DNA from: Candidatus Yonathbacteria bacterium RIFCSPLOWO2_01_FULL_47_33b
GTDB lineage: Bacteria > Patescibacteriota > Minisyncoccia > Phycocordibacterales > UBA1550
Assembly (NCBI GenBank): GCA_001823575.1
Contig: MHUW01000007.1
Coordinates: 24,223 to 88,222, forward strand
Reading direction: 5' to 3'
DNA length: 64,000 nt
The translations under genes were made by a program, and so were the position numbers. How positions within the stretch are numbered: position 1 is the stretch's first letter; every line of letters begins with the position of its first letter. Shown piece by piece: positions 33,640-48,522 of this stretch. Under the pieces are notes generated by a model. The model did no database searches and had not been told where the DNA came from. It saw only the letters and a list, made by a program, of their open reading frames with translations.

Positions 33640-33675
33640 AAAAGGCTTCCTCACGGAAGCCTTTTTTCTTTTTAC
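33640..33675 (+). terminator. rho-independent terminator
   Basis: aaaaggcttcc-tcac-ggaagcctttttt. Confidence 0.7.
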
Positions 33676-35144: not shown

Positions 35145-36149
35145 TTAAGCTGTTTTCTTTTTCTTGCCACTCACAAGCATCGTAAGAATGAGCCCTACCA
35201 TTTTATCCTTGTGTGCAGGGTCGCTCTCGGCAACGAGGAGTGTGATTGCCGTAAGTGCTGGTGGTGTAATGCGCGACGTATCAAGTGCTTTCGCTTTCGC
35301 AAGGAACCATACAAACGCATATGCGCCACTTCTTTTGTTGCCGTCGATGAACGGATGATTTTTGATAACAAAATAGAGGAGGTGTGCTGCCTTTTCCTCA
35401 ACCGTTGGGTACATATCACTACCACCAAACGACTGCATCACATTCCCCACAATACCCGCCACGCTTCCTCGTTCGCGTTCGGTCGCAAAAAGATCTGTCG
35501 CCTCTCCTTTTACAACGAGGGACTCTTTGAGTGTCGCGAGGGCACTCCCAAAAGTCTCGGCTGTAATTTTAACCGATTTCTTGGTAGCACCATTGGTGAC
35601 CAGAGTGTCTTTATCGTAAGCATCAAGCGAAAGCCAAGTATCAGCAAAGAGCGAGATGAGTTCAAGGATTCCCTCAGTGTCCACGGTCGCACCCTTGGGG
35701 AGTAGTGCCTTCACGTCGGCCACCGTCTTCAAAAACGCATCATAATTTTGTGAAATACGAGACTTGTTTATCGTGTAGCCGTCAACGATATGAGCACGGA
35801 GGGTTTTGGTTGCCCATTGGCGGAATTTTGTACCAACTACCGAATTTATTCGATACCCCACGGCAATCAAAATATCGAGATTATAAATATCAACCTCACG
35901 GCGAACCTCTCTGCCTGACTCATTTTGAACTAGTTCCATTTTGGAACTAGTTGCTCCCCGAGCCAGCTCCTTTCCCTTATAGATATTTTGGATATGCTTT
36001 GAAATTGCTTGCGGATTTACCTCAAACATTTCGGCCATCTGCATACGTGTCGCCCACACCGTTTCCTTACCAAAATCACCCCGAAGCTCAATAGCTCCAG
36101 ATTTTGCTTGATAGATTACCACTTCTTTTTTAATTTCTTTCGCTTTCAT
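35145..36149 (-). CDS. RhuM-domain / Doc(Fic)-family fusion protein
   Basis: N-terminal RhuM-like region (YQAKSGAIELRGDF...ILIAVGYRINS) and C-terminal Doc motif HPFIDGNKR. Confidence 0.75.
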   Translation of the reverse strand: MKAKEIKKEVVIYQAKSGAIELRGDFGKETVWATRMQMAEMFEVNPQAISKHIQNIYKGKELARGATSSKMELVQNESGREVRREVDIYNLDILIAVGYRINSVVGTKFRQWATKTLRAHIVDGYTINKSRISQNYDAFLKTVADVKALLPKGATVDTEGILELISLFADTWLSLDAYDKDTLVTNGATKKSVKITAETFGSALATLKESLVVKGEATDLFATERERGSVAGIVGNVMQSFGGSDMYPTVEEKAAHLLYFVIKNHPFIDGNKRSGAYAFVWFLAKAKALDTSRITPPALTAITLLVAESDPAHKDKMVGLILTMLVSGKKKKTA

Positions 36150-36235
36150 TGTAGTGTATTATACCATACCATTTCAGCACACTGTATAAAAAAGCCCATG
36201 CGGAGGCATGGGCTGAATTTCTTTATGTTTTTAAA

Positions 36236-36598
36236 TTATATTTTTGCTGTTGGGCGCTTAGGGAGTCCTTCAATCTTTTTCGCAACCCGTTTTACTTCGG
36301 CCGTGCGACTGAGTTTTTTGTGATTACCAAAGGGCCACATGCGCATGGCACTTTCGCCTTCTACGTGGGTGAATATCCGAAATTTGTGCTCGAACTTTGC
36401 CGCGTTGCATTCCATACGCACAATGAATCGATAAGAGACTTCCACGACATCATGGGGAACATCCTCATTGTCCAACTTGCCACGATAAATCTTGTCATCA
36501 GTGGCGCCACATGATTGCACCAAATCCATCATCGCGGACTCATTGGTCTTTGCATCCTTTGGCTCTACGAACCATGTTGTTACGCGTTCCTTTTTCAT
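36236..36598 (-). CDS. hypothetical protein
   Basis: SD GGGGAG. No recognisable domain. Confidence 0.5.
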   Translation of the reverse strand: MKKERVTTWFVEPKDAKTNESAMMDLVQSCGATDDKIYRGKLDNEDVPHDVVEVSYRFIVRMECNAAKFEHKFRIFTHVEGESAMRMWPFGNHKKLSRTAEVKRVAKKIEGLPKRPTAKI

Positions 36599-36682
36599 CG
36601 CGCTTCTCCCCTGTTAAATATGTTATTGAAAACAACCAACCTGCCCACAACCCTACCACAAAAGCGCAGGAAATCAAGATGC

Positions 36683-36717
36683 CTATCATTTGGAAGCTTC
36701 GCTTCCAAATGATAGGA
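36683..36717. repeat. 15-bp-arm perfect inverted repeat (cctatcatttggaag / cttccaaatgatagg)
   Basis: Read directly. Lies in the 5' leader of the 36598 gene, next to a terminator. Confidence 0.6.
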
Positions 36718-36758
36718 AAAGCCCCCGCCATTAGAAAATGGCGGGGGCTTTTGTCTCG
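36716..36758. terminator. bidirectional terminator with a perfect 15-bp stem
   Basis: aaaagcccccgccat-tagaaa-atggcgggggctttt. Confidence 0.75.
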
Positions 36759-36763
36759 AGAAA

Positions 36764-37189
36764 TTAACTAAGTGATGCTACTTCACGCATGATTTGATCA
36801 AGCTTGGTGTTGATAGCTTCTAGTTGTTTCAGAACTGCATCATTGCTGGTGCCGCTTTCAGCGCGAGGAGCGTACGGAGCGCGGGGGCTGAAATCCTTTT
36901 TAGGAAATCTGTCTCCACCTCTATCCTTATTGAAACTTCCTCCTGCTACATTGAAACAATCCTTGCAGTACACAGGCTTTGCTCCCGTAGGGCGAAACGG
37001 TACTTCGCACGCCTTGTGGCACTCTGAACACGTTGCCTTATAGAGCGTAAACGGCGCATCGCTTGATTTACGATCTCCCCAATTCTTCTTGCCATAACTC
37101 GGCGCACCCGAGCGATTAGCACCAAATGAAGGTTTTCCTCCTCTTGCTCCATAACTCCCACTACCCCCTCGTTTGTTGTATTCTGTCAT
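36764..37189 (-). CDS. Gly/Arg-rich zinc-ribbon protein (CxxC...CxxC)
   Basis: CSECHKACEVPFRPTGAKPVYCKDCF with a low-complexity G/R/S-rich N-terminus. Confidence 0.6.
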   Translation of the reverse strand: MTEYNKRGGSGSYGARGGKPSFGANRSGAPSYGKKNWGDRKSSDAPFTLYKATCSECHKACEVPFRPTGAKPVYCKDCFNVAGGSFNKDRGGDRFPKKDFSPRAPYAPRAESGTSNDAVLKQLEAINTKLDQIMREVASLS

Positions 37190-37282
37190 AAGTACGTGGA
37201 CTATGCACTATATATGAAGAAATAGCAAGGGCGATACTGAAAAGGTCAATTATTCTTAATTAATCTCACCTGTGGATAACTT

Positions 37283-37310
37283 TTGACTTTTTTTACAAAA
37301 AAGTTATAAT
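37283..37310 (+). promoter_or_regulatory. sigma70-like promoter TTGACT-16-TATAAT
   Basis: Hexamers read directly on the plus strand. Confidence 0.5.
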
Positions 37311-37317
37311 ATATAGG

Positions 37318-37395
37318 TCTTTCGGTTTTACCATTAAACCGTAAGGGTATTACATCCTAGGGTAGCCCTCCGCAAGGAGGGCTACTTTGTTTTCT
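37318..37395 (+). ncRNA. candidate small RNA (approx. 78 nt) between a consensus promoter and an intrinsic terminator
   Basis: Promoter at 37283-37310, terminator gtagccctcc-gcaa-ggagggctac + tttgttttc. No ORF. Confidence 0.3.
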
Positions 37396-37972
37396 CTTCT
37401 CGGTGTTTCAAATCACGTCCCCAGATATCTTCTTCGATTTTGAGAACATCAACGTACCCGTCCCCTCCTGTGCGTAATTCTTCAGAGACGTTGTTCTTTG
37501 AGGAATAAGCATACACCTTTTTACCATCTCGCTTCAAATAGGTCACCAAGGCGAGAAAATCAGAATCCCCAGAGAAAAAGATAGCCGTATCATATTTATT
37601 CTTGTAATGAATAACATCAATAGTCATCTCTACGTCCATGTTTCCTTTTTCCTCCACAATATCCCCGTCATCTGAATGAACAGTGATACGTTTGAGTTCT
37701 TTTTTGCGAACAGTAAAACCTAAACCTTTCTTAAGGTAAGTAAAAAATTTATGCTTACCGTCCAATGAATAATCGCGAGTTCCTTCTGCTGGATATGCTG
37801 TGTAATAAAATACATCAATAGTATCCGCTCCATGCTTTTCCTTCAAAAATTTCTTCAATTTTTCAAAATCAAACACCCGTCCCTTCACCTTTTGCGCAGC
37901 CCAAAGGTTCGACGCGTCAATGAAGACGTACACGGCATGCGGTTTCTTTTCATCAGCTGTCATAACAATCAT
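37382..37972 (-). CDS. NYN-domain (LabA-like, PIN-fold) protein
   Basis: VFIDASNLW...IFFSGDSDF signature. Confidence 0.8.
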   Translation of the reverse strand: MIVMTADEKKPHAVYVFIDASNLWAAQKVKGRVFDFEKLKKFLKEKHGADTIDVFYYTAYPAEGTRDYSLDGKHKFFTYLKKGLGFTVRKKELKRITVHSDDGDIVEEKGNMDVEMTIDVIHYKNKYDTAIFFSGDSDFLALVTYLKRDGKKVYAYSSKNNVSEELRTGGDGYVDVLKIEEDIWGRDLKHREEKTK

Positions 37973-38075
37973 TCTACCACATTCTCTGCGAACGCCTCCC
38001 TTAAATATGCTTTTTCGAGAAATTTGAGGTCGGCGAGTTTGGTGGTTTGGAGGGTGCGGAAGATGATAAAAATCC

Positions 38076-38576
38076 TTACTTCAACACAACCCCGAGGTCG
38101 TAGATATCAAGTTTTCCATCGTTGTTTAGGTCACCGCTGTCGAGTGTCCCTTGTTTTTTGTGCAGGTCGTAGATGAGTTTTAGGTATTTCCCAAGCACGA
38201 TGCGCGGAATCTCATACTGTCGTTCCTTGCCATACCATTCAAATGGGTCTCGGCCGCTCTTTTTGGCGTTACAACCGCGACATGCAAGCACTTGGTTATC
38301 AAACGTATCTATCGCGATTTTTACCTTAGGAATAATATGCTCCCATTCAAGCCCCTCCTCAGCGCTAGCACAATATGCACAAGCTTTTTCTTCGTTAAAG
38401 AATTTCTTGTTCTCTCGCAAAATGTTCGATGGTTGCATCTGTCCATCTTTCAATTTTTTATACGAATGCATAACAAACCCGTAATTCTTTCGGTCACCAA
38501 CCGTGCTCCCCGCAATGAGCTTTGCGTATTCCCAATAAATAAGGTCCCGAATTGTTTTTACTGAAGCGTGAGGCAT
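38076..38576 (-). CDS. HNH endonuclease with a dockerin-like C-terminal motif
   Basis: CAYC...EWEHIIP...LACRGCNAKK HNH motif. C-terminal DLNNDGKLDIYDL. Confidence 0.8.
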   Translation of the reverse strand: MPHASVKTIRDLIYWEYAKLIAGSTVGDRKNYGFVMHSYKKLKDGQMQPSNILRENKKFFNEEKACAYCASAEEGLEWEHIIPKVKIAIDTFDNQVLACRGCNAKKSGRDPFEWYGKERQYEIPRIVLGKYLKLIYDLHKKQGTLDSGDLNNDGKLDIYDLGVVLK

Positions 38577-38590
38577 GATATTTTAAATTC

Positions 38591-38962
38591 TCAGTCTGCT
38601 TTTTTGTTTCTCGGGATCTCACTTCGGGGTTCTCTTCGAGATTTATCAAAAATATTTTCCAGCCATCTTACTAGGAAATTATGATGGTCACCACCAACCT
38701 CATCATAACGCCTGCCTGTAAGGTTTCTTGTAACTGCCTTTAAAAATTCGGCTAGATGCTCGATTTGTAACTTAATATTAACATCCTTTGTAGAAGTAGC
38801 CAGGGAGCGCGTCGCTCTATATTCTGAATTAAATATATTCGCAAGCTCCTGTTTATGTTTTCTCTCCTTAATAAAGACTGAGAATTCGTAGGTAATAAAA
38901 ATAACATTAACAACAAATGAGACTATCTGGAGCCACTCTGGGCTTGGAATTATATTTGGCAT
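38591..38962 (-). CDS. hypothetical membrane-anchored protein
   Basis: N-terminal TM. Same operon as the HNH gene. Confidence 0.5.
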   Translation of the reverse strand: MPNIIPSPEWLQIVSFVVNVIFITYEFSVFIKERKHKQELANIFNSEYRATRSLATSTKDVNIKLQIEHLAEFLKAVTRNLTGRRYDEVGGDHHNFLVRWLENIFDKSRREPRSEIPRNKKAD

Positions 38963-38966
38963 AATT

Positions 38967-39140
38967 TTAGTGTTTGGTTGGGTCTACTAATTTATAAGAA
39001 GATCCTAGTTTTAAGATTGGCGGTAATGTTTTCCCTTTTACACACGTGACTTCAATTCCTGTTTCGCCTCCTCTTGGTCCTATTACTTCATACTGCCCTG
39101 ATCTTGGCACCGCTTGCCCTGGTTTAAATGTATTCTTCAT
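38967..39140 (-). CDS. small YjzC-like protein (57 aa), absent from the ORF track
   Basis: Manual translation MKNTFKPGQAVPRSGQYEVIGPRGGETGIEVTCVKGKTLPPI... matches the YjzC-like pattern KPG.KAP.SG.Y...G..GG...LPP. 4-5 nt intergenic gaps on both sides. Confidence 0.45.
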   Translation of the reverse strand: MKNTFKPGQAVPRSGQYEVIGPRGGETGIEVTCVKGKTLPPILKLGSSYKLVDPTKH

Positions 39141-39145
39141 AATTA

Positions 39146-39709
39146 TTATTCAGCTTCATTAAGTTCTTCCTTTTCCTTGCAATATTTTTCAGAAAAGTCC
39201 TTTAGCGCCACCTTGATGTCTTTAAGTTCACCATCCATTACTGCATCGTTTGTTTCTGGTGTTTTGGGAATAAGTAATTTTACTCCACCACCAAATTTAA
39301 ATTCAAAATTATGAGCAGAGTTATCGATTTCAGCAGAAAAACCTGTTTTATCCTTAGAAACAGCTACATTGGTTGATATTTTTTTAGAGCGAGAAATCAC
39401 TTTGGGTGACCAGTTTGCCATTTTTGTTGGATCAACCCCATATTTTTCATAATCAGAAAGAACTTTAGTTACACGTGACTTATAAGTTGCCAGTGAGCTT
39501 GCGCTGAAGTTTTTGTTTTTTGAAAATACGTTCTGGTAAATTTGCTCGATGTTTTTGCTAAATACGTCTATCGAATTGCGCTCCTCTTCATTTAATACTG
39601 CCTCAAACAGCTTCAGTGCTGTTTTAAGTGCCATACCTGTATTGTCAGGGTATTTTCTGCTCTTGACCGCTCTGTCTATAAACTCATATAGATCTTGAAT
39701 TTTTTTCAT
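39146..39709 (-). CDS. hypothetical protein
   Basis: First gene of a 4-gene minus-strand operon downstream of the RM gene. Confidence 0.5.
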   Translation of the reverse strand: MKKIQDLYEFIDRAVKSRKYPDNTGMALKTALKLFEAVLNEEERNSIDVFSKNIEQIYQNVFSKNKNFSASSLATYKSRVTKVLSDYEKYGVDPTKMANWSPKVISRSKKISTNVAVSKDKTGFSAEIDNSAHNFEFKFGGGVKLLIPKTPETNDAVMDGELKDIKVALKDFSEKYCKEKEELNEAE

Positions 39710-39851
39710 GATATTTTTGGGGTTAATTAGTAACTCCTAAATGCTATCACAACTCAACAATATAAGTCAAGTGATAATATAAACAGATTTGTGTATAATC
39801 TGTTTATATGTGGTTTTTAAAGGGTTTTATGTTATTAAAGTTTTATTTGGA

Positions 39852-42800
39852 CTACTTATCAACATTTTTAATTGCAATCATAATCCTATCCGTTTCAACC
39901 AGTGCTACAATCATTTTTTGATAGTGTTCGATGTCTGTGTTGGAGAGTTTGCGGGATTGGCGGTCCTTGAGCCATTTTTGAGCAGGCTGATAGCCACCGA
40001 TGTAGAAATTCCAGGCGACTTCAGGAACATTGCCAAAATACTGCGTGTCATTGATGTACACATTGCCATCTTTGTATTTTGGATATTTCGCCTCGACGGT
40101 GTCGCTTCCCGCCTGAGGAAATGTCGTGATGAAGTTTTTGAGCTTTGGTGATTCCAAAAGATGTAGTGCGCGGAGTTCACCACCGAGCGCAACAAGCTTT
40201 TTGAACGACTCAGTATCTTGAGGATAAGGAACACGCGGAAAATTAATCTTCAAAAACTCTTTATATTTTTCGCGGTAACTTGGTGAGTGCAAAGCGGCAT
40301 AGATGTAATCAAAAATATCTTCGGGGGTTGTCTTGCCGACAATCTTTTCTATTTCATCAACAATTTCTTTTTTGAGGTTCGGTGTTTTTAAGCCGTCTTC
40401 GGTGTAGAGATAGAGGGGGAAAGTATAAGCACCTTCCTTCGTCTGCAAAGAAACGGTACATCTATCAACGAGTGTTTTTGTTAAAAAAATGTGTTTAAAA
40501 TCAGAGCTGCTTTGCTGCTTGGAAACCAGCAGGGCTAAATTATCTTTACCAACCAAATGTTTGTAAACTTTATATCCAGAACGACTAATCAGCTCTGGGT
40601 CATAATAGATCCACACAAAACCAAACGGTCTATACTGCTCTAACTGTATGTAATTTTCATCAAACAACTTCCCTTTAATTCGTTCCGTTAATTTATATCC
40701 ACTTGAGTCGACCACTCGATAAGTAGATTTAAAACTACCACTGTAATTATTTGATAGAAGTTCTTGAATTTTCTTTGTGAGTTTACTTTTATCAAAATCT
40801 GTGAAGAGCGGGTCTCGATCAGTCTGAACACCAGAATTCGAAATCTGAAATAACTCATCAACCTTAAAACCTTTCTCATATTCTTCATTCGCACCAAAAT
40901 CTTTCGGCACAAAAAAATAGTACGGCTCAGAATATTCAAGTTTCTGCCATTTAATATTTTCTACCGACCCAGCATCAAGTGCCTCGAACTTTACTTTTTG
41001 TTTTCCGTAGAGTTCGGTGTGGTACATATCTGCCAACCGCTTTTTCTTTCCGCTTTTCTTTACGAACAGAGAGATAGATACACCCTGTTGAATAGCGAAA
41101 ACGTTTTCGTCCTTCCCTCCGTCAGGTGCTACTTCTTTCTTTTTTGCATTGCCGTGCAGGTCGATAATATAAATCGAGTCAAATGTTTCGAGCAAGTGTT
41201 TGCGCATTTGACGGTGCGTGATTCCGTCGATGAATGAGTTGTTCGTAATCATACCAACAATCCCCTCACCATTTTTCTCAATTAAGTCCTCAGTAAAACG
41301 AATGAATTTTATATAATCATCGTCAAGGTTGATTTTACGCTCGTTCAAATCTTTTTTGTATTCCTTGATCAATTCTGAAATATGTTCACCCTTGTTTTGC
41401 GAGCTGACATTATAGGGCGGGTTGCCCATCACGACCATGATCGGCAATTCGTTTTTTACGCGGTTTGCTTGGTTGGACTCTTCAGTGATTGCTTTACCGA
41501 GACCGATGCTTGAAAATAAGGTGTTTTCTTCTGACTCGCCTTTTTCGAGCGAGTTGGTTAGGTACACACCGAGGCGCGTACTCTCGTTAATATTTGCGCC
41601 AGACTCTTTGATCGTCGAAGAAAGTTTGAGGTGTGCGATAGTGTACGACGCCATCATAAGTTCAAAGCCATGAAGGCGCGGGAGTAGGTCTTCGTTCACA
41701 TAATTGTTCCACCTCCCCTCTTGCCCTGCAAATGATTTTTGGATGTGCTGTATCGCTTCATTCAAAAATGTCCCCGTGCCTGTTGCGGGGTCGAGTACTT
41801 GGACTTTGTGCACCGACACTTTGTGTTTCTTGCCTTGCACCTCTTTCATTATTTCGATTTTTGAATTTTCGGCGAGGCCTTGCGCAAGACCAAACTCTTT
41901 TTTCAAAATGTCATCTACGGCGCGAACAATGAACCGCACCACAGGGAGTGGGGTGTAGAACACGCCCATCTTTTTGCGCTCGGCAGGGTCATACTCCTGC
42001 AAGAAGTCTTCGTAAAAATGAATGATGGGGTCGCGACTGTCGTCCTTGCCCACTTTGTAGTAGTTATGCACGATTGCCTCTACGTCGGCATTAGTAAACT
42101 CTTCACAAAGTTCGTTTACAATAAACTCAATACGTGGGTCAAACGACGAGCCGGCGATGTGGTCAAAAAAATGGCGAAGAAACGGATTGGACGCTGGGAC
42201 TAAATCACGCGCTTCCCTGCGCGAAAAATCCTCTGGTGTATCGTCATAGTACCTTGCAACAAAAAGCCCGTACACGAGCGTCTGTGCATACATATCGGCA
42301 AACTTTTCCTTGTCGAGGTCGGCAAGTAAGAGCTTTTTGATAACCTCGTAGACAGAGAGTAGGTTTTCATTTTTTGCGTTGTCTTCTTGCGCAAGAAAAA
42401 CCTTTACATTGTCGCGGATACGGCGCGCCTTGCCAGCCATCACCTTTGCCAAGACTGAGCCAGACTTTATCGGCTCTTTTGATTCGGTGATGAAGCCGCT
42501 AATTGTGTCCTCGAGAAGCTTGAACGTTTCCTCGTTTGAAACTATTTCTTTTTTGTCGAGCTTTGCGATAACAACCGCCTCGCCGTATCGTGTAGCATTT
42601 TGATAAAAACGAAACTCAAGACAGTTGGTAAGAATAATATTTGAGTATCCGTAATACCTACCCATTTGTTCGCTTTTTTCTATCTCGTCAAGTGAAATAT
42701 TAAGGTCCTTTGCTTCTGCATATGCAACAACGGTCTTCCCTTTAGTAAAGACGAAATCCGGTGCGCCATACTCGCTTCGTTTTGGTTCGTTGTGAACTTT

Positions 42801-42920
42801 TAATTCGGTGATTTTTTCAAACAACTCTTGAAGCGCGGGGCGGTACGAGTGCTCGGTAGCATGTCCGCTTGCGTGCGTTTCAGCGACTTTTTGTATGAAA
42901 TTTTTTACAGTTTGACTCAT
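39852..42920 (-). CDS. Type IIG restriction-modification enzyme, MmeI-like (nuclease + gamma-class N6-adenine MTase + TRD)
   Basis: N-terminal PDFVF...AYAEAKD nuclease motif. MTase motif I VLDPATGTGTFL and motif IV NPPY. Length about 1000 aa. The track start 42959 is not ATG, so the ATG at 42920 is preferred. Confidence 0.85.
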   Translation of the reverse strand: MSQTVKNFIQKVAETHASGHATEHSYRPALQELFEKITELKVHNEPKRSEYGAPDFVFTKGKTVVAYAEAKDLNISLDEIEKSEQMGRYYGYSNIILTNCLEFRFYQNATRYGEAVVIAKLDKKEIVSNEETFKLLEDTISGFITESKEPIKSGSVLAKVMAGKARRIRDNVKVFLAQEDNAKNENLLSVYEVIKKLLLADLDKEKFADMYAQTLVYGLFVARYYDDTPEDFSRREARDLVPASNPFLRHFFDHIAGSSFDPRIEFIVNELCEEFTNADVEAIVHNYYKVGKDDSRDPIIHFYEDFLQEYDPAERKKMGVFYTPLPVVRFIVRAVDDILKKEFGLAQGLAENSKIEIMKEVQGKKHKVSVHKVQVLDPATGTGTFLNEAIQHIQKSFAGQEGRWNNYVNEDLLPRLHGFELMMASYTIAHLKLSSTIKESGANINESTRLGVYLTNSLEKGESEENTLFSSIGLGKAITEESNQANRVKNELPIMVVMGNPPYNVSSQNKGEHISELIKEYKKDLNERKINLDDDYIKFIRFTEDLIEKNGEGIVGMITNNSFIDGITHRQMRKHLLETFDSIYIIDLHGNAKKKEVAPDGGKDENVFAIQQGVSISLFVKKSGKKKRLADMYHTELYGKQKVKFEALDAGSVENIKWQKLEYSEPYYFFVPKDFGANEEYEKGFKVDELFQISNSGVQTDRDPLFTDFDKSKLTKKIQELLSNNYSGSFKSTYRVVDSSGYKLTERIKGKLFDENYIQLEQYRPFGFVWIYYDPELISRSGYKVYKHLVGKDNLALLVSKQQSSSDFKHIFLTKTLVDRCTVSLQTKEGAYTFPLYLYTEDGLKTPNLKKEIVDEIEKIVGKTTPEDIFDYIYAALHSPSYREKYKEFLKINFPRVPYPQDTESFKKLVALGGELRALHLLESPKLKNFITTFPQAGSDTVEAKYPKYKDGNVYINDTQYFGNVPEVAWNFYIGGYQPAQKWLKDRQSRKLSNTDIEHYQKMIVALVETDRIMIAIKNVDK

Positions 42921-42957
42921 AAAAAGTAGGAGTGTTAACAGTTCCCAGTATACCTCC

Positions 42958-42990
42958 AATCAATCTTTAATACAAAAGCCCCAATCGGGG
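42958..42990 (-). terminator. terminator after the MazG-like gene
   Basis: gccccgattggggc followed by ttttgtatt on the minus strand. Confidence 0.55.
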
Positions 42991-42997
42991 CGCTTGT

Positions 42998-43348
42998 TTA
43001 CAGCTTCGTATACTTCGTATGCTTCCCTTTGGCTTTTTCGACGGGGTATTTGGCTTTGTTTTTCTCTATCTTTTTCTCGTGGGCGTCGGCGATGTCGATG
43101 CCGAGGTCGTGACTCATCAAAAGGACCCACGAGAGCACATCCGCGAGCTCCTCGCCTATCTCCTCTTTACCCTCTTTTACATACACCTCTATTTCCTCTT
43201 TGTTTTTCCACTGGAAATGCTCCAGCACCTCGGCTGCCTCGAGCGAGAGCGATATTGCGCAGTCCTTGGGGTTGTGGAACTGCTGCCAGTCGCGTTCATC
43301 CCGAAACTTGGTAATCTCCTCCGTTAATTTTTGAATTGAATTAGGCAT
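42998..43348 (-). CDS. MazG-like nucleotide pyrophosphohydrolase (small all-alpha NTP-PPase)
   Basis: EEI..F...R.W..FH.PK...SL..E..E.LE and EE..D MazG-type motifs. 2-nt gap from the upstream gene. Confidence 0.8.
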   Translation of the reverse strand: MPNSIQKLTEEITKFRDERDWQQFHNPKDCAISLSLEAAEVLEHFQWKNKEEIEVYVKEGKEEIGEELADVLSWVLLMSHDLGIDIADAHEKKIEKNKAKYPVEKAKGKHTKYTKL

Positions 43349-43350
43349 TT

Positions 43351-44409
43351 TTATTGTAGGGATTTTTTTGCTTCATTTTTTGCACGCTCAACCATAAATT
43401 TAACGGCTTCGTTCATATTGGTGTCCTGGATTACAATATCCGGCCGTTTTTCCTGAAATACGCGGTAGACCTCATCAGCAAATGCTTGCCCAATCATCGG
43501 AACACGATCATAATCCATCACGATTATTCTGAATTTCTCAAGCCCCGACAATACACGCCGAGCCTGAGAACGAGAAATATGCACACCACCCATAGTGTAC
43601 AAGCGGACTCGAATCTCTGTTTTATCAAACCCATAATCGCTATCTTCAGCAAGGTTAGTATACTTCTTAAAAATATCGTTCAAATGGTGTTTGTCTTTTA
43701 TATTGATCTTGAAACTCACCTTCGTCCCTTTTTTGATTCCCTTTATTTTTTTAACGAAGATGTCTTTAATTTTGTTATCCGCAATATATTGATACCCGTA
43801 GCTATCAAGTACAAAAAGGTCCCCGACTTTTGATGTGAAGAAAATACCCTCACCTGAATGAAGTTTGGGCGCTGTGGTCATTTTTCCTTTTAAAAGGTCC
43901 TGAATTGCTTCAATCTCAGAGTTAAGGTTGCGTTTACGCATAATGTTACGGTATACACCAACGCCGTAGTCATCAATAACAAAAGAAAGCTCGTTGTCTT
44001 TCAGTAGTACCGTAACCTGAATTATTTCTGACTTGGAATGTTCGATAGCATTATTCAACATTTCTGAAAATGCGAACGTAAAAATACTTTTTATATTTTC
44101 TGGAAGTTTTTTAAACGGTAAAAATGAGCGCTCAACATCATCAAGGACTTTGTGCTCCTCGAGAGATTTGTTTTCTAATTTTTTGGTGTACCTATTTTCA
44201 ATAGTGTCTGGATGGGAATCAGCGTATTCTGGCAAAACATACGCGGCATTGCGAGTCGATCCTATTTTTATAAGTTTTCCTTCGGCGACAAGTTCAGACA
44301 GCATTTTTGAAACATACTGCCTCGTAACACTAAAAGCCGCCACAAAATAGGCACTTTTAAGAAGCCCTTTCTGTTTTGCTATCTTGAGTATCTTTTCCTT
44401 GTTCAGCAT
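43351..44409 (-). CDS. wHTH - GHKL ATPase-like - DUF4325 (STAS-like) protein
   Basis: N-terminal HTH, central FSEMLNNAIEHS (HATPase_c-like) and C-terminal RIIVMDYDRV...GQAFADEV (DUF4325-like). The track starts at TTG 44421. Confidence 0.6.
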   Translation of the reverse strand: MLNKEKILKIAKQKGLLKSAYFVAAFSVTRQYVSKMLSELVAEGKLIKIGSTRNAAYVLPEYADSHPDTIENRYTKKLENKSLEEHKVLDDVERSFLPFKKLPENIKSIFTFAFSEMLNNAIEHSKSEIIQVTVLLKDNELSFVIDDYGVGVYRNIMRKRNLNSEIEAIQDLLKGKMTTAPKLHSGEGIFFTSKVGDLFVLDSYGYQYIADNKIKDIFVKKIKGIKKGTKVSFKINIKDKHHLNDIFKKYTNLAEDSDYGFDKTEIRVRLYTMGGVHISRSQARRVLSGLEKFRIIVMDYDRVPMIGQAFADEVYRVFQEKRPDIVIQDTNMNEAVKFMVERAKNEAKKSLQ

Positions 44410-44462
44410 ATTGTAAACCAATTGTAAACCAATGCTTTTTAATTGTCAACTAATTGTCAACC
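44410..44462 (-). promoter_or_regulatory. promoter built from tandem 11-bp repeats (2x TTGACAATTAG, 2x TTTACAATTGG) giving TTGACA-17-TACAAT, leaderless
   Basis: Repeats read directly. The -10 lies immediately upstream of the ATG. Confidence 0.55.
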
Positions 44463-44513
44463 AGCAAAATAAGGCTTATTTTCAGTGTTATTTTGCTAAT
44501 TTGTGGATGTTAT

Positions 44514-45769
44514 TTAAAGAAACAACAAATCCCTATCCAAATCATCGGACTCGGTGCCTTTTGTTTTGTGTTTGAGGGCGGTGTGAGTTGAAGCGAGGTA
44601 CACCACGCGCTTGCCGAGTTTGTCTTCTAGTGTATCAATGCGTTTGTGGATGGCATCAAACTTGTCGGCCTTGATCGTCCCACCGAACAAATCCGCCTGT
44701 GAAGCATGTCCGGGAACAAGGTCGTGGAGGGTTACTCCTGTGGTGCGGTACAGAACGCCTCCTGTATGTATTTTTTCAAGCTCCGCATGCGCGAGCGCCA
44801 TGAGAATCTCGGGGGAATTTGAAGGTACGGAAAGTGGTATCGAACACGTTACGATTTTGAAATTTTGTGTCTTCAGAAAAATAGAGATTTTCTTGGGCAC
44901 CAATTCATAGTGTCGCGCTTTTTTGCAGGCGTCCTCTATGTTTTTTGAAAGCTGCGACCAGAGAAATGTTTTGTCATTGGTCGCGGGGTGAAATGTTAGC
45001 GTCTTTTGTATGGACGAGTAAACTGTTTTAACCTCTGGGTCTACCTCCATAACCGACTCGCCGCCCAACTCGCGCCAGATAGCTTCGTAGGGTTTTGAGA
45101 GATTTTGTCTGACCCAAGAAATATCTTTCATACTAAAATCTTTGGCAGTATACACGGCCCTCTTGGTGAGAAACTCTGCTGTTTTGGGTCCAATGCCCCA
45201 AACTTTCTTGATTGGTGTCTTTGTGAGGAAATCCGGCGCCGTACTTGTCTCGATGACGGTCAGACCATTTGGCTTGACCCAGTTGGATGCAACCTTGGCA
45301 AGCACTTTTGTTGGCGCGAGACCAATCGACACCGAGAGCCCGAGCTCTTCGTTTACTTCTTTTTTAATACGCTCCGCCATTTGCAGATAGGTCATCTTGA
45401 GTGGTGGCTCGAGTCCCGTGAGATCGGCAAAGCATTCATCAATACTATATTCCTCGACATCATCGGCATACCTGCGCACAATATCAAACATCTTGCTCGA
45501 ATAAAGTGCATATGACTTGTAGTCTCCTGGCAGAATGATGACGCTCGGGAAGTCTCTTTTGACTTTGAATATCGGCATACCGCGAATGATGCCGAGCGCT
45601 TTTGCTTCGTACGACAGCGCCGATACAATCCCCGCTCCTCGCCCGTCACCACCGGCAGACCCTTTAGCGTCGGGTCCTTTGCGACCTCCACCCCCACAAA
45701 AAACGCATCTCCATCAATATGGAAAATCACCTTTTGTTTTATGAGATTATTTTGAGCGAGTGTCTTCAC
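44514..45769 (-). pseudogene. dinB: DNA polymerase IV (Y-family) interrupted by a -1 frameshift in a C4/G4 homopolymer
   Basis: The N-terminal frame (IFHIDGDAFFVGVEV...GEERG) and the downstream frame (IVSALSYEAKALGIIRGMPIFKVK...) are both DinB-like. The junction is at cccc 45630-45633. One extra C/G would fuse the frames. Confidence 0.75.
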
Positions 45770-45793
45770 TCACTGTATTATACCAAATTCTCT

Positions 45794-45814
45794 GACTGGG
45801 GAACTTGGTCCAAG
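45794..45814. repeat. degenerate direct repeat of the tRNA-Gln 3' end (14/14 bp ACTGGGGAACTTGG, then a T-loop-deleted remainder)
   Basis: Identical 14-mer at 45794-45807 and 45998-46011. Confidence 0.6.
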
Positions 45815-45957
45815 AGTCTGCGGCCAAGCCGTGAATTTTGTAATTCAGAATCTGCTGATTCAGGATCGCCTCTCGCTCTGCTGAGCTCGAAACCTACGTC
45901 CTCTCTTCGAGGACTGCGGCCCGCGGTTCAATCCCAAGTTCTTCAACCGTTGTAAAT

Positions 45958-45992
45958 AAAAAGCACCCTCATGACAAGGGTGCTTTTTATTT
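45958..45992 (-). terminator. terminator downstream of tRNA-Gln
   Basis: aaaaagcaccc-ttgtcatga-gggtgcttttt. Confidence 0.7.
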
Positions 45993-45998
45993 ACAAAA

Positions 45999-46069
45999 CT
46001 GGGGAACTTGGGATCGAACCAAGATTGACGGCTTCAAAGGCCGCTGTCCTACCATTAGACGATTCCCCA
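45999..46069 (-). tRNA. tRNA-Gln (anticodon TTG)
   Basis: Manual cloverleaf: acceptor UGGGGAA/UUCCCCA with U1-A72, D-arm GUCU-AAUGGUA-GGAC, anticodon arm GCGGC-CUUUGAA-GCCGU, T-arm CUUGG-UUCGAUC-CCAAG, discriminator G. CCA is not encoded. Confidence 0.85.
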
Positions 46070-46122
46070 ATATTTAAAACAGCACTTGTGCAGAATACAC
46101 CAAAAGAGATACTTCGGCAACG

Positions 46123-47154
46123 CTATTCCCCAATGACACGCAGGAGTGCAAGTTCAAGAGGAAGCGTCGGGATAGCCGCTGTGCGGAGGTCGGCGTAGGC
46201 GCCAAGGAGCGCTACGAGCTCCTTGGACGCGAGGGTTTTGCCAGCTTCTTTGGAGAGCTTCTCGAGGAACACAAAATCCTCCTCTGATGAATTCTCACGC
46301 ACCTCGGCCTTCATCGCTGTTGCAAAGCGTAGGATGAGAACAAAGCGCACTTTGCGTACGACGAGGTCGAGGAAAATCTTCATATCCCCTATTGTTTCAC
46401 TCGCTTGCGCAAGGACTTGCGCCCCCTTGGCAAAATCACGCTCGGTGATGGCGAGAATAAAATCATTGACCATGCGCGTGCTTGGCGCACCGAGGGTTAC
46501 CGCAACTTCTTCGGGTGTTATTTTTTTATCCGTTGACGCAGCGATGACTTTTTGAAGCGTACCGAGCGTGTCACGGAATGATCCGTCACCGAGGAGCGCA
46601 ATGAGGTCCGACGATGACGGCTCGAGTTTGTAGCCCTCTTTTTTTGAAACGGTCTCGACGAGCTTTTGTAATGTCGCGTGCGAAGGGCGCTTGAAACGGA
46701 ACGACTGACAGCGCGAGACAATAGTCTCGGGGAGCTTTTCCTCCTCAGTCGTCGCGAGGATAAAGATGACATGCTTTGGGGGCTCCTCAAGGGTCTTCAA
46801 GAGTGCGTTGAATGCCTCCTTGGTCAGCATGTGCACCTCGTCCACAATGTACACTTTAAATTTCGAATCGAACGGCAAGGTGTGTACCGCATCGCGGAGG
46901 GCGCGAATATCATCAACACCACGGTTGGACGCTGCATCAATCTCGTAGGTGTCATTATCCGACGAACCAATCTCGCGGGCAAAGATGCGAGCAATGGAAG
47001 TCTTGCCCGTACCGCGCGAACCAGAAAAAAGGTACGCATGCGCGATAGAATCATTTTGGAGTGCGCCCTTGAGTGTTGCCACCACCGCATCCTGGCCAAT
47101 GACCTCGTCAAACGACTGTGGGCGATATTTGCGGTAGAGAGTTACTTCTGACAT
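46123..47154 (-). CDS. dnaX: DNA polymerase III subunit gamma/tau, short form
   Basis: GSRGTGKTS Walker A, DEVHML and clamp-loader motifs. The track starts at 47205 upstream. Confidence 0.85.
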   Translation of the reverse strand: MSEVTLYRKYRPQSFDEVIGQDAVVATLKGALQNDSIAHAYLFSGSRGTGKTSIARIFAREIGSSDNDTYEIDAASNRGVDDIRALRDAVHTLPFDSKFKVYIVDEVHMLTKEAFNALLKTLEEPPKHVIFILATTEEEKLPETIVSRCQSFRFKRPSHATLQKLVETVSKKEGYKLEPSSSDLIALLGDGSFRDTLGTLQKVIAASTDKKITPEEVAVTLGAPSTRMVNDFILAITERDFAKGAQVLAQASETIGDMKIFLDLVVRKVRFVLILRFATAMKAEVRENSSEEDFVFLEKLSKEAGKTLASKELVALLGAYADLRTAAIPTLPLELALLRVIGE

Positions 47155-47189
47155 TTCCCTAGTATAGCAAAAAAGTATGCGGTTCAAAA

Positions 47190-47225
47190 ATAAAACCCCC
47201 TGCAATGTTTTGCGGGGGTTTTAAG
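47190..47225. terminator. terminator hairpin
   Basis: aaaaccccctgc...gcgggggtttt. Confidence 0.55.
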
Positions 47226-47226
47226 G

Positions 47227-47448
47227 CTAGGCACGTACCGAAATACTCGGTTTCCGGTAGTAGCCAAGCGCACGGTTCAGGATCTCGATCTCGCGCGAAA
47301 GCTGATCGATCTCGGTGTTGAGGAAAACCAAACTTTGATGCGGTAATCCACCTTTTTTCAAAAGAGATTCAAGGTAAGCAACCACCACCCTTTTAGCATT
47401 CAAGCTTTCTATTACCTGGTATTGCGCAAGTGCTTTGCAAATGTTCAT
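47227..47448 (-). CDS. small hypothetical protein (73 aa)
   Basis: ORF preceded by a strong promoter. Confidence 0.4.
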   Translation of the reverse strand: MNICKALAQYQVIESLNAKRVVVAYLESLLKKGGLPHQSLVFLNTEIDQLSREIEILNRALGYYRKPSISVRA

Positions 47449-47472
47449 TCTCTACTCCAGAGTAATTATCTA

Positions 47473-47507
47473 CGCACATTATAGCACCTTTTGGTACTAA
47501 TTGTCAA
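47473..47507 (-). promoter_or_regulatory. sigma70 promoter TTGACA-17-TATAAT
   Basis: Consensus hexamers on the minus strand, upstream of the 47448 start. Confidence 0.6.
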
Positions 47508-48522
47508 TGTTGTGAGTTTTCAAAAATTCACGAGCAATACCCTCAATCTCATCGGCATTCTTGGCGTCCATAAGCTGCACGCGGAGTTCCTTTGCTCCGT
47601 CAAAGCCGTTTACGTACGCCTTGTAGTGTTTTTTCATAATGGCGAAGTTTTTGATGTCGCCGAGAAGTTTTTCGTAGAGATGCGTGTGCTCAATCATAAT
47701 CTCAAACTTTTCTGCGAGGGTGGGCGGTGTTGTACGAGCACGGTCAAAGAGCCACGGTGTACCAAACACGCCACGACCAATCATCACCCCGTCAGCACCC
47801 GAAGCATCAGCCTTTGCTTGTGCGTCAGCAAGATCCTGCACATCACCGTTACCGATGATGAGCGTCCCTGTCCCCTCTGCGAGCTCCTTTGCGCGCTTCA
47901 CCAGCTCCCATCGCGCAGGTACGAGAGAGAGCTCCTTCCTGGTACGTGCGTGCACTGTAATGACCGCGGGCTTTGTTTCAAGGATGGCACCGAGCCATCC
48001 TTCGAGATCTTCTTTGTTGTAGCCTACACGCGTTTTGACCGAGACTGGCAAACCCCCTGCGCCCTCCATCACCGCACGAATGACCTCCTGTGCAAGCTTT
48101 GGGTCTTTAATATGTGCAGCGCCGGCTCCTTGCTTCTCGATGCTTTTGTCAGGGCAACCCATATTGATATCGATACCGTCAAAGCCCAGCTCCTTGACGA
48201 GCGCGGCCGTCTGGCGCATGTGCTCAGGATGTGAACCAAAAATCTGCGCCACAATAGGATGCTCGCGCTCCGTGAAAGCGAGGTCACGCAAAAGCACTTC
48301 GCGCCCCTGCGAGCAAAGCCCATCCGCAGAAACAAACTCAGTCCAAAATACATCAGGACCACCCCCCGGCTCCCCGTGACGGCTGTACTTTGCAATCATC
48401 TGGCGAAATGCCGCGTCAGTCACATCGGCCATCGGCGCCAAGACGAAAAAGGGCTTCTTGAGATCCGCCCAAAAACCCATCACAGGTCCGTCGTTGTTTG
48501 TTTGTTCCTTTGCCTTCTTCAT
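47497..48522 (-). CDS. dus: tRNA-dihydrouridine synthase
   Basis: FVLAPMADVTD and DINMGCP motifs. The track start 48540 is GTG, so the ATG at 48522 is preferred. Confidence 0.85.
   Translation of the reverse strand: MKKAKEQTNNDGPVMGFWADLKKPFFVLAPMADVTDAAFRQMIAKYSRHGEPGGGPDVFWTEFVSADGLCSQGREVLLRDLAFTEREHPIVAQIFGSHPEHMRQTAALVKELGFDGIDINMGCPDKSIEKQGAGAAHIKDPKLAQEVIRAVMEGAGGLPVSVKTRVGYNKEDLEGWLGAILETKPAVITVHARTRKELSLVPARWELVKRAKELAEGTGTLIIGNGDVQDLADAQAKADASGADGVMIGRGVFGTPWLFDRARTTPPTLAEKFEIMIEHTHLYEKLLGDIKNFAIMKKHYKAYVNGFDGAKELRVQLMDAKNADEIEGIAREFLKTHNIDN

What the first reader, a model, noticed from the sequence alone, without database searches (positions are those of the whole stretch)
45794..46069. 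tRNA-Gln followed by a degenerate copy of its own 3' end
The tRNA 3' 14-mer ACTGGGGAACTTGG is repeated about 200 bp away on the same strand. It is then followed by TCCAAG, which is the tRNA sequence with the T-loop deleted. Nearby is a GCGGC-CAA-GCCGT arm resembling the anticodon stem with a collapsed loop. The intervening 200 bp is highly structured and lies upstream of the frameshifted dinB. Integrative elements that target tRNA 3' ends leave this kind of remnant, and the region borders the accessory island.
Basis: seen in the sequence. Interest (0 to 1): 0.5.

Follow-up and report, generated by a model that had tools for sequence, protein, structure and literature searches.

The report
Leftover tRNA-Gln end beside dinB
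Next to a normal glutamine tRNA gene in a candidate-phyla-radiation bacterium sits a real leftover copy of that tRNA's tail plus a back-to-front partial copy; this is a rearrangement scar built like the RtT repeats beside the E. coli tyrosine tRNA genes, not the edge of a mobile island.

Summary
tRNA-Gln(UUG) lies on the minus strand at 46070..45998. Its last 14 nt recur exactly 203 bp downstream (45795-45808) and nowhere else in the window (0 of 2000 shuffles). The copy reads CTTGG-A-CCAAG-TTCCCCAGT, a T stem without its loop.

Related Yonathbacteria genomes have the same copy at the same place, just before the dinB promoter, so it is an old remnant of a displaced tRNA-Gln 3' end. The DNA between tRNA and remnant differs in each lineage:
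- here, a perfect 20-bp bidirectional terminator plus an inverted partial tRNA copy;
- in one relative, colinear tRNA-Gln fragments and a conserved 90-nt element;
- in another, an MliC gene.

No integrase is present among the larger ORFs scanned. dinB is syntenic in relatives, so the remnant does not border the accessory island.

The inverted copy (45925-45948) and the direct copy pair into a 12-bp acceptor/T-stem helix enclosing about 130 nt. I found the same geometry downstream of a Patescibacteria tRNA-Tyr, a Eubacteriaceae tRNA-Ser and the E. coli tyrT/tyrV RtT repeats. The window element does not match the Rfam RtT model.

Verdict: a scar at a tRNA-linked recombination hotspot with RtT-like architecture. 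Function is unproven. Interest is modest.

The parts
45998..46070 (-). Functional tRNA-Gln(UUG) gene, directly 3' of dnaX (47205..46123)
   Evidence: ARAGORN; Rfam tRNA 62.7 bits. It is 100% identical to the tRNA-Gln of L091-L094 and L095. Its position after dnaX is conserved in all relatives examined.
45950..45996 (.). Perfect 20-bp palindrome with a 7-nt loop: GC-rich core GCACCCT/AGGGTGC followed by T-runs on both strands. Inferred to be a bidirectional intrinsic terminator.
   Evidence: the repeat finder I1, 100% complementary. It dominates the minimum-free-energy folds of both strands. The simple terminator scan did not call it, because the T-run lies inside the extended stem. The terminator role is therefore an inference from the sequence.
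45925..45948 (+). Inverted partial tRNA-Gln copy, GGTTCAATCCCAAGTTCTTCA-A. Read on the + strand it gives T loop, T-stem 3' half and acceptor 3' strand. Together with the terminator it forms a long palindrome with the real tRNA 3' end.
   Evidence: the repeat finder I2, 17 nt at 94%. Alignment score 29, reached by 0 of 2000 shuffles. Absent from the orthologous region in L091.
45898..45921 (+). Hairpin GTCCTC-TCTTC-GAGGAC overlapping AGGACTGCGGCC, which resembles the tRNA D-stem 3' half plus anticodon-stem 5' half in inverted orientation.
   Evidence: the repeat finder I7. On its own it is only marginal (p about 0.08). It is colinear with the inverted T-arm copy, consistent with an inverted tRNA copy that lacks positions 33-50.
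45846..45868 (-). CGATCC (end of a T loop) followed by the conserved hairpin CTGAATC-AGCA-GATTCTG
   Evidence: A 21-nt exact match to L091-L094 and L114. The 12-mer AATCAGCAGATT occurs among 119 loci only in these modules and in the tRNA-Tyr module of L012, always in tRNA-sense orientation. It has one exact copy in the window.
45817..45847 (+). Window-lineage-specific 31-nt stretch containing GCGGCC-AAGCCGT-GAAT-TTTG.
   Evidence: the repeat finder I5. Gapped antisense match, p about 0.03. It appears as an insertion relative to L091.
45795..45814 (-). Direct remnant of a tRNA-Gln 3' end, CTTGG-A-CCAAG-TTCCCCA-G-T: T-stem halves without the T loop, acceptor 3' strand and discriminator.
   Evidence: Exact 14-mer, 0 of 2000 shuffles. 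The orthologous copy CTTGGACCAAAAGTTCCCCAGC lies at L091:3956-3977, and a decayed CCAGTCA at L095:3972.
45797..45948 (.). RtT-like module. A 12-bp closing helix (45797-45808 with 45937-45948) encloses about 128 nt of small hairpins. The helix has two G.U pairs on the + strand and two A.C mismatches on the tRNA-sense strand.
   Evidence: Folds and helix check. ARAGORN -ps70 -i calls exactly 45797-45948 (+) as an intron-containing 'tRNA'. The same geometry occurs in L012, L015 and E. coli RtT.
45776..45787 (-). TTTGGTATAATA, an extended -10 (TGnTATAAT) promoter element lying 6 nt before the dinB GTG start at 45769.
   Evidence: Conserved in the window, L091 (3984-3995) and L095. Promoter function is inferred from the consensus.
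45626..45630 (-). Site of the dinB -1 frameshift: a G4 run where relatives have G5.
   Evidence: tblastn frame switch between 45626 and 45629. Sequence comparison with L091, L095 and L117. The same sequence occurs in assemblies L121 and L122.

Best explanation
The region is a scar of rearrangements at a tRNA-Gln-linked hotspot, not a working mobile element.

Shown:
- An older tRNA-Gln 3' end (CTTGG-A-CCAAG-TTCCCCAGT) was displaced about 190 bp downstream of the working gene before the window lineage split from two sister Yonathbacteria lineages. It now sits immediately upstream of the dinB extended -10 promoter.
- The DNA between the tRNA and this remnant has been replaced independently in each lineage.
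- In the window lineage the filler is a perfect bidirectional terminator hairpin plus inverted pieces of the tRNA. The tRNA 3' half, the hairpin and the inverted copy form one long palindrome.
- The inverted copy and the old direct copy can pair into a 12-bp acceptor/T-stem-like helix around about 130 nt. This is the architecture of the E. coli tyrT/tyrV RtT repeats.

Inferred:
- The displaced end arose when DNA carrying a replacement tRNA segment recombined into the gene, either by site-specific integration followed by loss of the element or by unequal or illegitimate recombination between tRNA copies.
- The inverted copy arose by template-switch extension of the terminator palindrome.
- Present-day roles are incidental: the hairpin terminates dnaX/tRNA-Gln transcription and insulates dinB.
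For: - Exact, unique 14-mer with 0 of 2000 shuffles.
- The orthologous remnant lies just before the conserved TTTGGTATAATA in L091-L094/L114 and, decayed, in L095.
- The content between tRNA and remnant differs by lineage: terminator plus inverted fragments here; colinear sense fragments 25-40, 44-59 and 61-72 plus element E in L091; an MliC gene in L095.
- Partial tRNA-Gln copies occur at this locus in L002, L010, L011, L083, L091 and L117. One is bracketed by a 32-nt direct repeat around a GIY-YIG gene.
- No recombinase was found among the larger window ORFs scanned.
- The palindrome I1 plus I2 is centred on the hairpin loop.
- Partial tRNAs are documented remnants of degraded integrated elements (bioRxiv 10.1101/2020.12.28.424599).
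- The sequence is reproduced in two other assemblies.
Against: - No empty site, excised form or integrase-bearing relative was found, so the insertion mechanism is not demonstrated.
- A simple att scar does not predict inverted tRNA fragments.
- The [inverted copy at +45 to +59 nt, direct copy at +153 to +189 nt] geometry recurs at four unrelated tRNA genes. A shared hairpin motif adds to this. Both hint at a constrained, possibly functional, module rather than random debris.
- The remnant's identity between the window and L091 is compatible with neutrality, so it says nothing for or against selection.
Confidence: 0.6

Rival explanations
1. Functional RtT-like RNA. The module is transcribed on the tRNA-sense strand, by read-through or from its own promoter. 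tRNA-processing enzymes recognise its acceptor/T-stem minihelix and tRNA-identical 3' end and release a stable tRNA-mimic RNA, as reported for RtT RNA of the E. coli tyrT operon.
For: - The architecture and spacing match E. coli RtT units, whose curated Rfam structure closes with the same kind of helix, and modules at L012 tRNA-Tyr and L015 tRNA-Ser.
- The AATC-AGCA-GATT hairpin is shared with L012, with a compensating change at the adjoining stem pair.
- RtT RNA comes from a repeat unit of the tyrT operon (PMC3318445, citing Bosl and Kersten 1991).
Against: - A perfect 20-bp terminator separates the tRNA from the module.
- On the sense strand the closing helix has two A.C mismatches, and the sense fold is 6 kcal/mol weaker than the antisense fold.
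- The inverted arm is absent in the sister lineage L091.
- There is no match to Rfam RtT even at E = 10, while the model finds all four E. coli copies.
Confidence: 0.2
2. A small RNA gene on the + strand, convergent with tRNA-Gln. Transcription would start near 45790 and run through the tRNA-like 45797-45948 structure (G3.U70, G4.U69, A73-like end) to the shared bidirectional terminator. Its first 14 nt would be perfectly antisense to the tRNA-Gln 3' end.
For: - A + strand sigma-70-like site TTGAGC-18-TATTAT at 45752-45781.
- G.U rather than A.C pairs on this strand.
- The strongest fold z-score, -8.7.
- ARAGORN at a 70% threshold calls 45797-45948 (+).
- The terminator lies immediately after the 3' end.
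Against: - The -10 is simply the reverse reading of the conserved dinB TATAAT.
- The -35 lies inside dinB codons and, by eye on alignment A2, has no counterpart in L091.
- No Rfam, tmRNA or tRNA model supports it.
- The element is lineage-specific.
- Two C-to-T transitions have about an even chance of giving G.U on one strand or the other.
Confidence: 0.08
3. A live attachment site. The tRNA 3' end and the remnant are attL/attR-like sites still used in trans by an integrase encoded elsewhere, and the accessory genes beyond dinB arrived through them.
For: A direct repeat covering T stem and acceptor, the classic T-loop/3'-end sublocation of integrases. The cargo between tRNA and remnant varies between lineages, including one gene in L095.
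Against: - No integrase among the larger ORFs scanned.
- The T loop, the usual crossover segment, is deleted in the remnant.
- The accessory region lies outside the repeat pair, beyond syntenic dinB.
- No further repeat in the window.
- Viral-contig scans gave nothing for the inverted copy, and only a chance hit inside a phage coding gene for the direct copy.
Confidence: 0.08
4. Chance similarity or an assembly artefact.
For: Palindromic and repeated sequence can be produced by assembly errors. Contigs of two close relatives break at the 3' end of dnaX.
Against: - 0 of 2000 shuffles for both the direct and the inverted copy.
- The remnant is orthologous in independent genomes.
- The window sequence is identical in two other assemblies.
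- The inverted arms have diverged, which is not the pattern of a chimeric read.
Confidence: 0.02

Closest known systems
RtT RNA / 178-bp repeats of the E. coli tyrT-tyrV operon (rttR; Rfam RF00391)
   Same: - The unit lies 3' of a tRNA gene and ends with a copy of that tRNA's 3' terminal nucleotides.
- An inverted complement of the T-stem/acceptor segment lies about 55-60 nt after the tRNA. It pairs with the terminal copy to close a multi-hairpin body of about 105-130 nt.
- Spacing: inverted copy at +59 and direct copy at +159 in E. coli, against +56 and +189 here.
   Different: - No sequence or covariance-model match (against the positive control).
- A single unit rather than a tandem array.
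- A strong terminator lies between the tRNA and the unit.
- The copy lacks the T-loop part and CCA.
- The tRNA is Gln in a Patescibacterium, not Tyr in an enterobacterium.
- The helix is imperfect on the tRNA-sense strand.
Partial-tRNA att scars left by elements that integrate into tRNA genes (for example the degraded tycheposon remnants of Prochlorococcus islands)
   Same: A direct repeat of a tRNA 3' segment downstream of the intact gene. The DNA between the repeats varies across related genomes. Multiple fragments accumulate at one tRNA (for the documented pattern; here).
   Different: No integrase or integrase fragment. The repeats enclose 189 bp without a gene. There are additional inverted fragments. 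Relatives also carry 5' fragments upstream of the gene, which 3'-end integration does not produce.
Free-standing homing-endonuclease insertions near tRNA genes
   Same: In relative L011 a small GIY-YIG gene sits between a duplicated 32-nt segment (upstream flank plus tRNA-Gln positions 1-13) and the intact tRNA-Gln. This shows one concrete agent that remodels this locus.
   Different: There is no nuclease gene at the window's site. The duplication in the window concerns the 3' end, not the 5' end.

Membership tests
Bacterial tRNA gene (tRNA-Gln) | Cloverleaf detected by a tRNA covariance model and ARAGORN, with a UUG anticodon | tested here: met
   Met for 45998-46070 (-) only: (62.7 bits against a gathering score of 29).
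tRNA pseudogene / second tRNA gene | Recognisable by a covariance model or by ARAGORN pseudogene mode | tested here: not met
   No second RF00005 hit at E up to 10 in 45650-46150. ARAGORN default and -ps find nothing. Only -ps70 with introns calls 45797-45948 (+), together with other calls that look spurious.
Integrative-element att scar | Direct repeat of the tRNA 3' segment downstream, in the same orientation | tested here: met
   14 nt exact, 20 nt counting the T-stem halves.
Integrative-element att scar | Integrase or recombinase gene, or a fragment of one, next to a repeat | tested here: not met
   No recombinase domain in the 40 larger window ORFs scanned with Pfam. The two small ORFs overlapping the spacer have no Pfam match.
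Integrative-element att scar | Foreign cargo between the repeats, and an empty site in relatives | tested here: inconclusive
   The window has 189 bp of non-coding DNA. L095 has an MliC gene at the same place. No relative with a clean empty site was recovered.
RtT RNA (Rfam RF00391) | Match to the RtT covariance model | tested here: not met
   No RtT hit at E up to 10. The same tool finds four copies in E. coli at 133-137 bits.
RtT RNA (Rfam RF00391) | Unit 3' of a tRNA gene that ends in a copy of the tRNA 3' end, closed by pairing with an upstream inverted complement | tested here: met
   for the window; for E. coli.
RtT RNA (Rfam RF00391) | Co-transcribed with the tRNA and released by processing | not testable with these tools
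   No expression data. The perfect terminator hairpin between tRNA and module argues against efficient co-transcription.
tmRNA / other curated tRNA-like RNAs | ARAGORN tmRNA call or an Rfam family hit | tested here: not met
   (-m mode).
MITE (miniature inverted-repeat element) | Terminal inverted repeats plus a target-site duplication and multiple genomic copies | tested here: not met
   Inverted ends are present. By eye the flanks show no target-site duplication. No other copy was found in the window or in the fetched loci. Only 64 kb of this genome was available.

The most novel reading that the evidence does not exclude
RtT-type modules may not be an E. coli oddity. They could be a widespread class of tRNA-trailer elements, built as tRNA, about 50 nt (usually a terminator hairpin), an inverted copy of the T-stem/acceptor strand, a structured body of about 110-130 nt, and a direct copy of the tRNA 3' end. 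They would be generated by palindrome extension across the tRNA terminator plus retention of a displaced 3' end. They would be either processed into tRNA-mimicking minihelix RNAs or used as folded hairpin recombination sites. The Patescibacteria examples (tRNA-Gln here, tRNA-Tyr in L012) would be related through the shared AATC-AGCA-GATT hairpin.
Probability: 0.15. Interest if true: 0.65.

Novelty: new variant of a known kind. Interest (0 to 1): 0.35.

Why it matters
On its own this is a small evolutionary scar, and it corrects the idea that it marks an island border.

Its wider interest is twofold. First, the dnaX-tRNA-Gln locus of Parcubacteria is a recombination hotspot in genomes that otherwise show few classical mobile elements. 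It carries nested tRNA fragments, toxin-antitoxin pairs, a GIY-YIG gene and single cargo genes.

Second, the architecture matches the long-unexplained RtT repeats of E. coli. It recurs beside other tRNAs in distant phyla. That makes the origin and role of such tRNA-end-mimicking modules testable by comparative genomics and RNA sequencing.

Tried and rejected
1. The genome-contig scan with a DnaX alignment used patterns that were too generic and returned only distant relatives, at most 56% identity. The useful relatives came from the look-up of encoding contigs.
2. Viral-contig scans. The inverted-copy 21-mer had no hit. The 19-mer CTGGGGAACTTGGTCCAAG hit three contigs, all the same phage coding gene (...GDWGTWSK...), so this is effectively one chance match. 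The element E core had no hit.
3. The metagenome scan for the remnant pattern gave 19 hits, of which only L114 is a true homologue, of the L091 type. The rest lie in unrelated sequence with none of the locus features and look like chance matches.
4. tmRNA or another known tRNA-like RNA: no ARAGORN or Rfam support.
5. A group I or other intron in a + strand tRNA: about 80 nt is too short, and the only 'intron' call comes from ARAGORN at a 70% threshold.
6. Homology of the window's body to element E of L091/L117: MAFFT aligns them, but neither local alignment nor blastn detects it, so I make no claim.
7. A conserved -35 inside the remnant: the equivalent region in L095 is different, so selection on the remnant as promoter DNA is not supported.
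8. Protein-coding explanation: the 78-aa and 75-aa + strand ORFs have no Pfam match, and the sequence they cover is not conserved in L091.
9. The primary RtT paper (PMC329039) is not held. It is cited indirectly through PMC3318445.

Full report
**What is in the sequence.** ARAGORN and Rfam find one tRNA in the 64-kb window: tRNA-Gln(UUG) at 45998-46070 on the minus strand. It lies directly 3' of dnaX (47205..46123). In tRNA orientation the second copy lies 189 nt downstream of the gene. It reads CTTGG-A-CCAAG-TTCCCCA-G-T: both T-stem halves, no T loop, then the acceptor 3' strand and discriminator. In a dinucleotide-shuffle test of the 228-nt spacer, none of 2000 shuffles reached its alignment score.

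The spacer also holds tRNA-Gln pieces in the opposite orientation.
- GGTTCAATCCCAAGTTCTTCA (45925-45945, + strand) matches the T loop, T stem and acceptor in 16 of 17 aligned positions (0 of 2000 shuffles).
- AGGACTGCGGCC (45910-45921) matches the junction of D stem and anticodon stem (p about 0.08).

Between the tRNA and the inverted T-arm copy lies a perfect 20-bp palindrome with a 7-nt loop (45950-45996). Its GC core and flanking T runs make it look like a bidirectional terminator. The tRNA 3' half, the hairpin and the inverted copy thus form one long imperfect palindrome.

The inverted copy (45937-45948) and the direct copy (45797-45808) can pair into a 12-bp acceptor-plus-T-stem helix that closes a multi-hairpin body of about 128 nt. 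This helix has two G.U pairs on the + strand and two A.C mismatches on the tRNA-sense strand. Rfam at E up to 10 reports nothing but the true tRNA and meaningless hairpin hits. ARAGORN finds nothing at default or -ps settings. Only at a 70% threshold with introns does it call 45797-45948 (+) a 'tRNA with a 79-nt intron', alongside calls that look spurious.

**Organism and reproducibility.** DnaX and DinB homologues place the window in Patescibacteria, Candidatus Yonathbacteria. Two other public assemblies are identical to window 44000-48000, including the palindrome and the dinB frameshift. An assembly artefact is therefore unlikely.

**Comparative evidence.** tRNA-Gln follows dnaX in every relative examined.
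- *L091-L094 and L114* (Yonathbacteria RIFOXYC2_FULL_47_9 type; DinB 90% identical). The order dnaX, tRNA-Gln, dinB is the same and the tRNA is 100% identical. Just before the conserved TTTGGTATAATA of dinB these genomes carry CTTGGACCAAAAGTTCCCCAGC. This is the same loop-less remnant, preceded by the same CGATCC-TGAATCAGCAGATTC hairpin. The remnant therefore predates the split of these lineages.
- *Same genomes, between tRNA and remnant.* The content differs entirely from the window. L091 has colinear sense fragments of a tRNA-Gln (positions 25-40, 44-59, 61-72) interrupted by a 90-nt two-hairpin element E. It also has a 5' fragment (positions 1-22) upstream of the intact gene.
- *L095* (DinB 91% identical). 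An MliC-family gene sits between the tRNA and a decayed remnant, CCAGTCA-AGGATTTGGTATAATA.
- *L117* (DinB 73% identical to the window's; its DnaX is 64% identical to that of L091). A 5' tRNA fragment plus element E lie upstream of the tRNA, and another gene lies between the tRNA and dinB.
- *More distant relatives.* Toxin-antitoxin pairs, other genes or further partial tRNA-Gln copies occur at the locus.
- *L011.* A 32-nt direct repeat, made of upstream flank plus tRNA positions 1-13, brackets a small GIY-YIG nuclease gene.

The locus is a genuine hotspot, and the 14-mer copy is the distal, displaced tRNA end.

None of the 40 larger ORFs of the window scanned with Pfam has an integrase, transposase or other recombinase domain. 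The repeat pair encloses only 189 bp with no credible gene. dinB is part of the conserved dnaX-tRNA-Gln-dinB neighbourhood. The restriction-modification and defence genes beyond it (Type ISP enzyme, MazG-like, HNH, NYN, Fic) therefore lie outside the repeat pair, and the remnant is not the island border. No further copy of the tRNA end exists in the window.

**A recurring architecture.** I scanned all 50 tRNAs in the fetched loci for partial copies. The window's pattern is an inverted copy of the T-stem/acceptor strand about 50 nt downstream and a direct copy of the 3' end about 150-190 nt downstream. The same pattern appeared at a Patescibacteria tRNA-Tyr (L012: +45 and +153) and at a Eubacteriaceae tRNA-Ser (L015: +58 and +187).
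- In both, the segment before the inverted copy is a terminator-like hairpin.
- L012 carries two tandem modules, the distal one decayed.
- The L012 module shares the 12-mer AATCAGCAGATT with the window and L091. It is a hairpin with loop AGCA, and the stem pair next to the shared 12-mer differs in a compensating way. Among 119 loci this 12-mer occurs only in these modules, always in tRNA-sense orientation. My rough post-hoc estimate of chance is about 0.003.

I then examined the classical E. coli tyrT-tyrV locus. Each 178-bp RtT repeat has GGGGAAGGAT, the inverted complement of T stem and acceptor, at +59. Each has the last 19 nt of tRNA-Tyr at +159. The same core lies between tyrT and tyrV. 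Rfam's curated RtT structure closes with exactly this helix. RtT RNA is known to derive from one of these repeat units (PMC3318445, citing Bosl and Kersten 1991; also bioRxiv 10.1101/2024.07.17.603846). The window module is thus built like an RtT unit. It is not a sequence member of that family: there is no hit at E up to 10, whereas the positive control scores 133-137 bits.

**Most likely explanation** (confidence about 0.6). This is a scar at a tRNA-linked recombination hotspot.
- *Shown:* an old displaced tRNA-Gln 3' end; lineage-specific replacement of the intervening DNA; a window-lineage-specific palindrome that includes an inverted tRNA copy.
- *Inferred:* the displacement arose by recombination of DNA carrying a replacement tRNA segment, either by site-specific integration followed by loss of the element or by unequal or illegitimate recombination between tRNA copies. 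Partial tRNAs are documented remnants of degraded integrated elements. The inverted copy arose by template-switch extension of the terminator palindrome. Today the hairpin probably terminates dnaX/tRNA-Gln transcription, and the remnant merely abuts the dinB extended -10 promoter. The region that would hold a -35 differs in L095, so I see no evidence of selection on the remnant.

**Rivals.**
- *A functional RtT-like processed RNA on the sense strand* (about 0.2). The recurrent geometry and the shared hairpin favour it. The intervening terminator, the A.C mismatches, the absence of the inverted arm in L091 and the lack of a model match count against it.
- *A + strand small RNA convergent with the tRNA* (about 0.08). 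G.U pairs, a promoter-like site and the shared terminator favour it. However, the -10 is just the reverse of the dinB TATAAT, and the -35 lies inside dinB codons that differ in L091.
- *A still-active att site used in trans* (about 0.08).
- *Chance or artefact* (about 0.02), excluded.

**Novelty and interest.** tRNA-end remnants and RtT repeats are both known, so this is a new variant of a known kind. The modestly novel points are these:
- an RtT-like architecture in a candidate-phyla-radiation bacterium, beside a different tRNA and with a terminator inside it;
- its recurrence in distant phyla;
- the density of nested tRNA-Gln fragments at the Parcubacteria dnaX-tRNA-Gln locus.

Function remains unproven, and I rate the interest as modest (0.35).

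Noticed in passing
window 45626-45630 (dinB, minus strand 45769..44514): dinB carries a -1 frameshift in a G run: GAGCGGGGATT, where L091, L095 and L117 have GAGCGGGGGATT. The N-terminal 47 codons are in one frame and the remaining 371 in another. The same G4 is present in two other assemblies, so it is either a real pseudogene or phase variant, or a shared homopolymer error.
   Followed up: partly
L091:3829-3918 and L117:1958-2046: A roughly 90-nt element with two hairpins (element E) is 91.6% identical between genomes whose DnaX proteins are only 64% identical, and it shows a compensatory T:A to C:G change in the long hairpin. It lies downstream of the tRNA-Gln in one genome and upstream in the other. 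There is no Rfam match. It is either strongly constrained or recently transferred.
   Followed up: partly
L002:5770-5793, L010:2965-2988, L083:4834-4858, L091:3680-3701, L117:1937-1957: A 5' fragment of tRNA-Gln (about positions 1-24) lies 19-150 nt upstream of the intact tRNA-Gln in several divergent Parcubacteria, usually followed by a hairpin. In L091 and L117 it directly follows the conserved upstream region that precedes the intact tRNA in the window. L002 and L083 share the hairpin GGGAATGAAAnATAAACTGCTTTATnTTTCAT with a compensatory change.
   Followed up: partly
L011:5193-5546 (OZ246398.1, complete chromosome): A 32-nt direct repeat (19 nt of upstream flank plus tRNA-Gln positions 1-13) brackets a 78-aa GIY-YIG nuclease gene (Pfam E = 6e-18) inserted just before the intact tRNA-Gln. 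The ORF just after the tRNA looks, by eye only, like a second small nuclease of the same kind. This resembles a free-standing homing-endonuclease insertion.
   Followed up: partly
L083:4925-5065: An intact tRNA-Gln flanked by an 11-bp inverted repeat that extends its acceptor stem (GAATTCAGTGC / GCACTGAATTC) sits inside the remains of a different tRNA-Gln allele, of the type found in L084 and L086. L091 shows the same arrangement with an 8-bp repeat (TTTTAAGC / GCTTAAAA). tRNA-Gln sequences differ unusually strongly between close relatives.
   Followed up: no
L012:3435-3810 (minus strand): Two tandem RtT-like modules follow a tRNA-Tyr. The distal one has its inverted arm split by an inserted hairpin and its direct arm truncated, as expected if newer units push older ones outward.
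   Followed up: partly
L082:1418-2031, L083:4166-4791, L085:4146-4689: A RelB/YafQ toxin-antitoxin pair is inserted between dnaX and tRNA-Gln in three relatives but not in the window.
   Followed up: no
L081 and L087 (contig ends): Contigs of two close relatives (DnaX 93% and 96% identical) end inside dnaX or 16 nt after it. This is consistent with assembly breaking at the repeat-rich tRNA-Gln region.
   Followed up: no
window 33672-44421: Downstream of dinB lies a defence-type cluster, all on the minus strand: a DUF4325/HATPase protein, a MazG-like protein, a 1035-aa Type ISP restriction-modification enzyme, HNH and NYN domain proteins, a RhuM/Fic protein and a DUF2779 protein. Relatives have a MazG-like gene next to a type I HsdR at the equivalent position.
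   Followed up: partly
window 46116-46130 (dnaX stop region): The last codons of dnaX read ATTGGGGAATAG, which resembles the tRNA-Gln 5' end ATTGGGGAATCG. This is a 9-mer match and probably chance.
   Followed up: no
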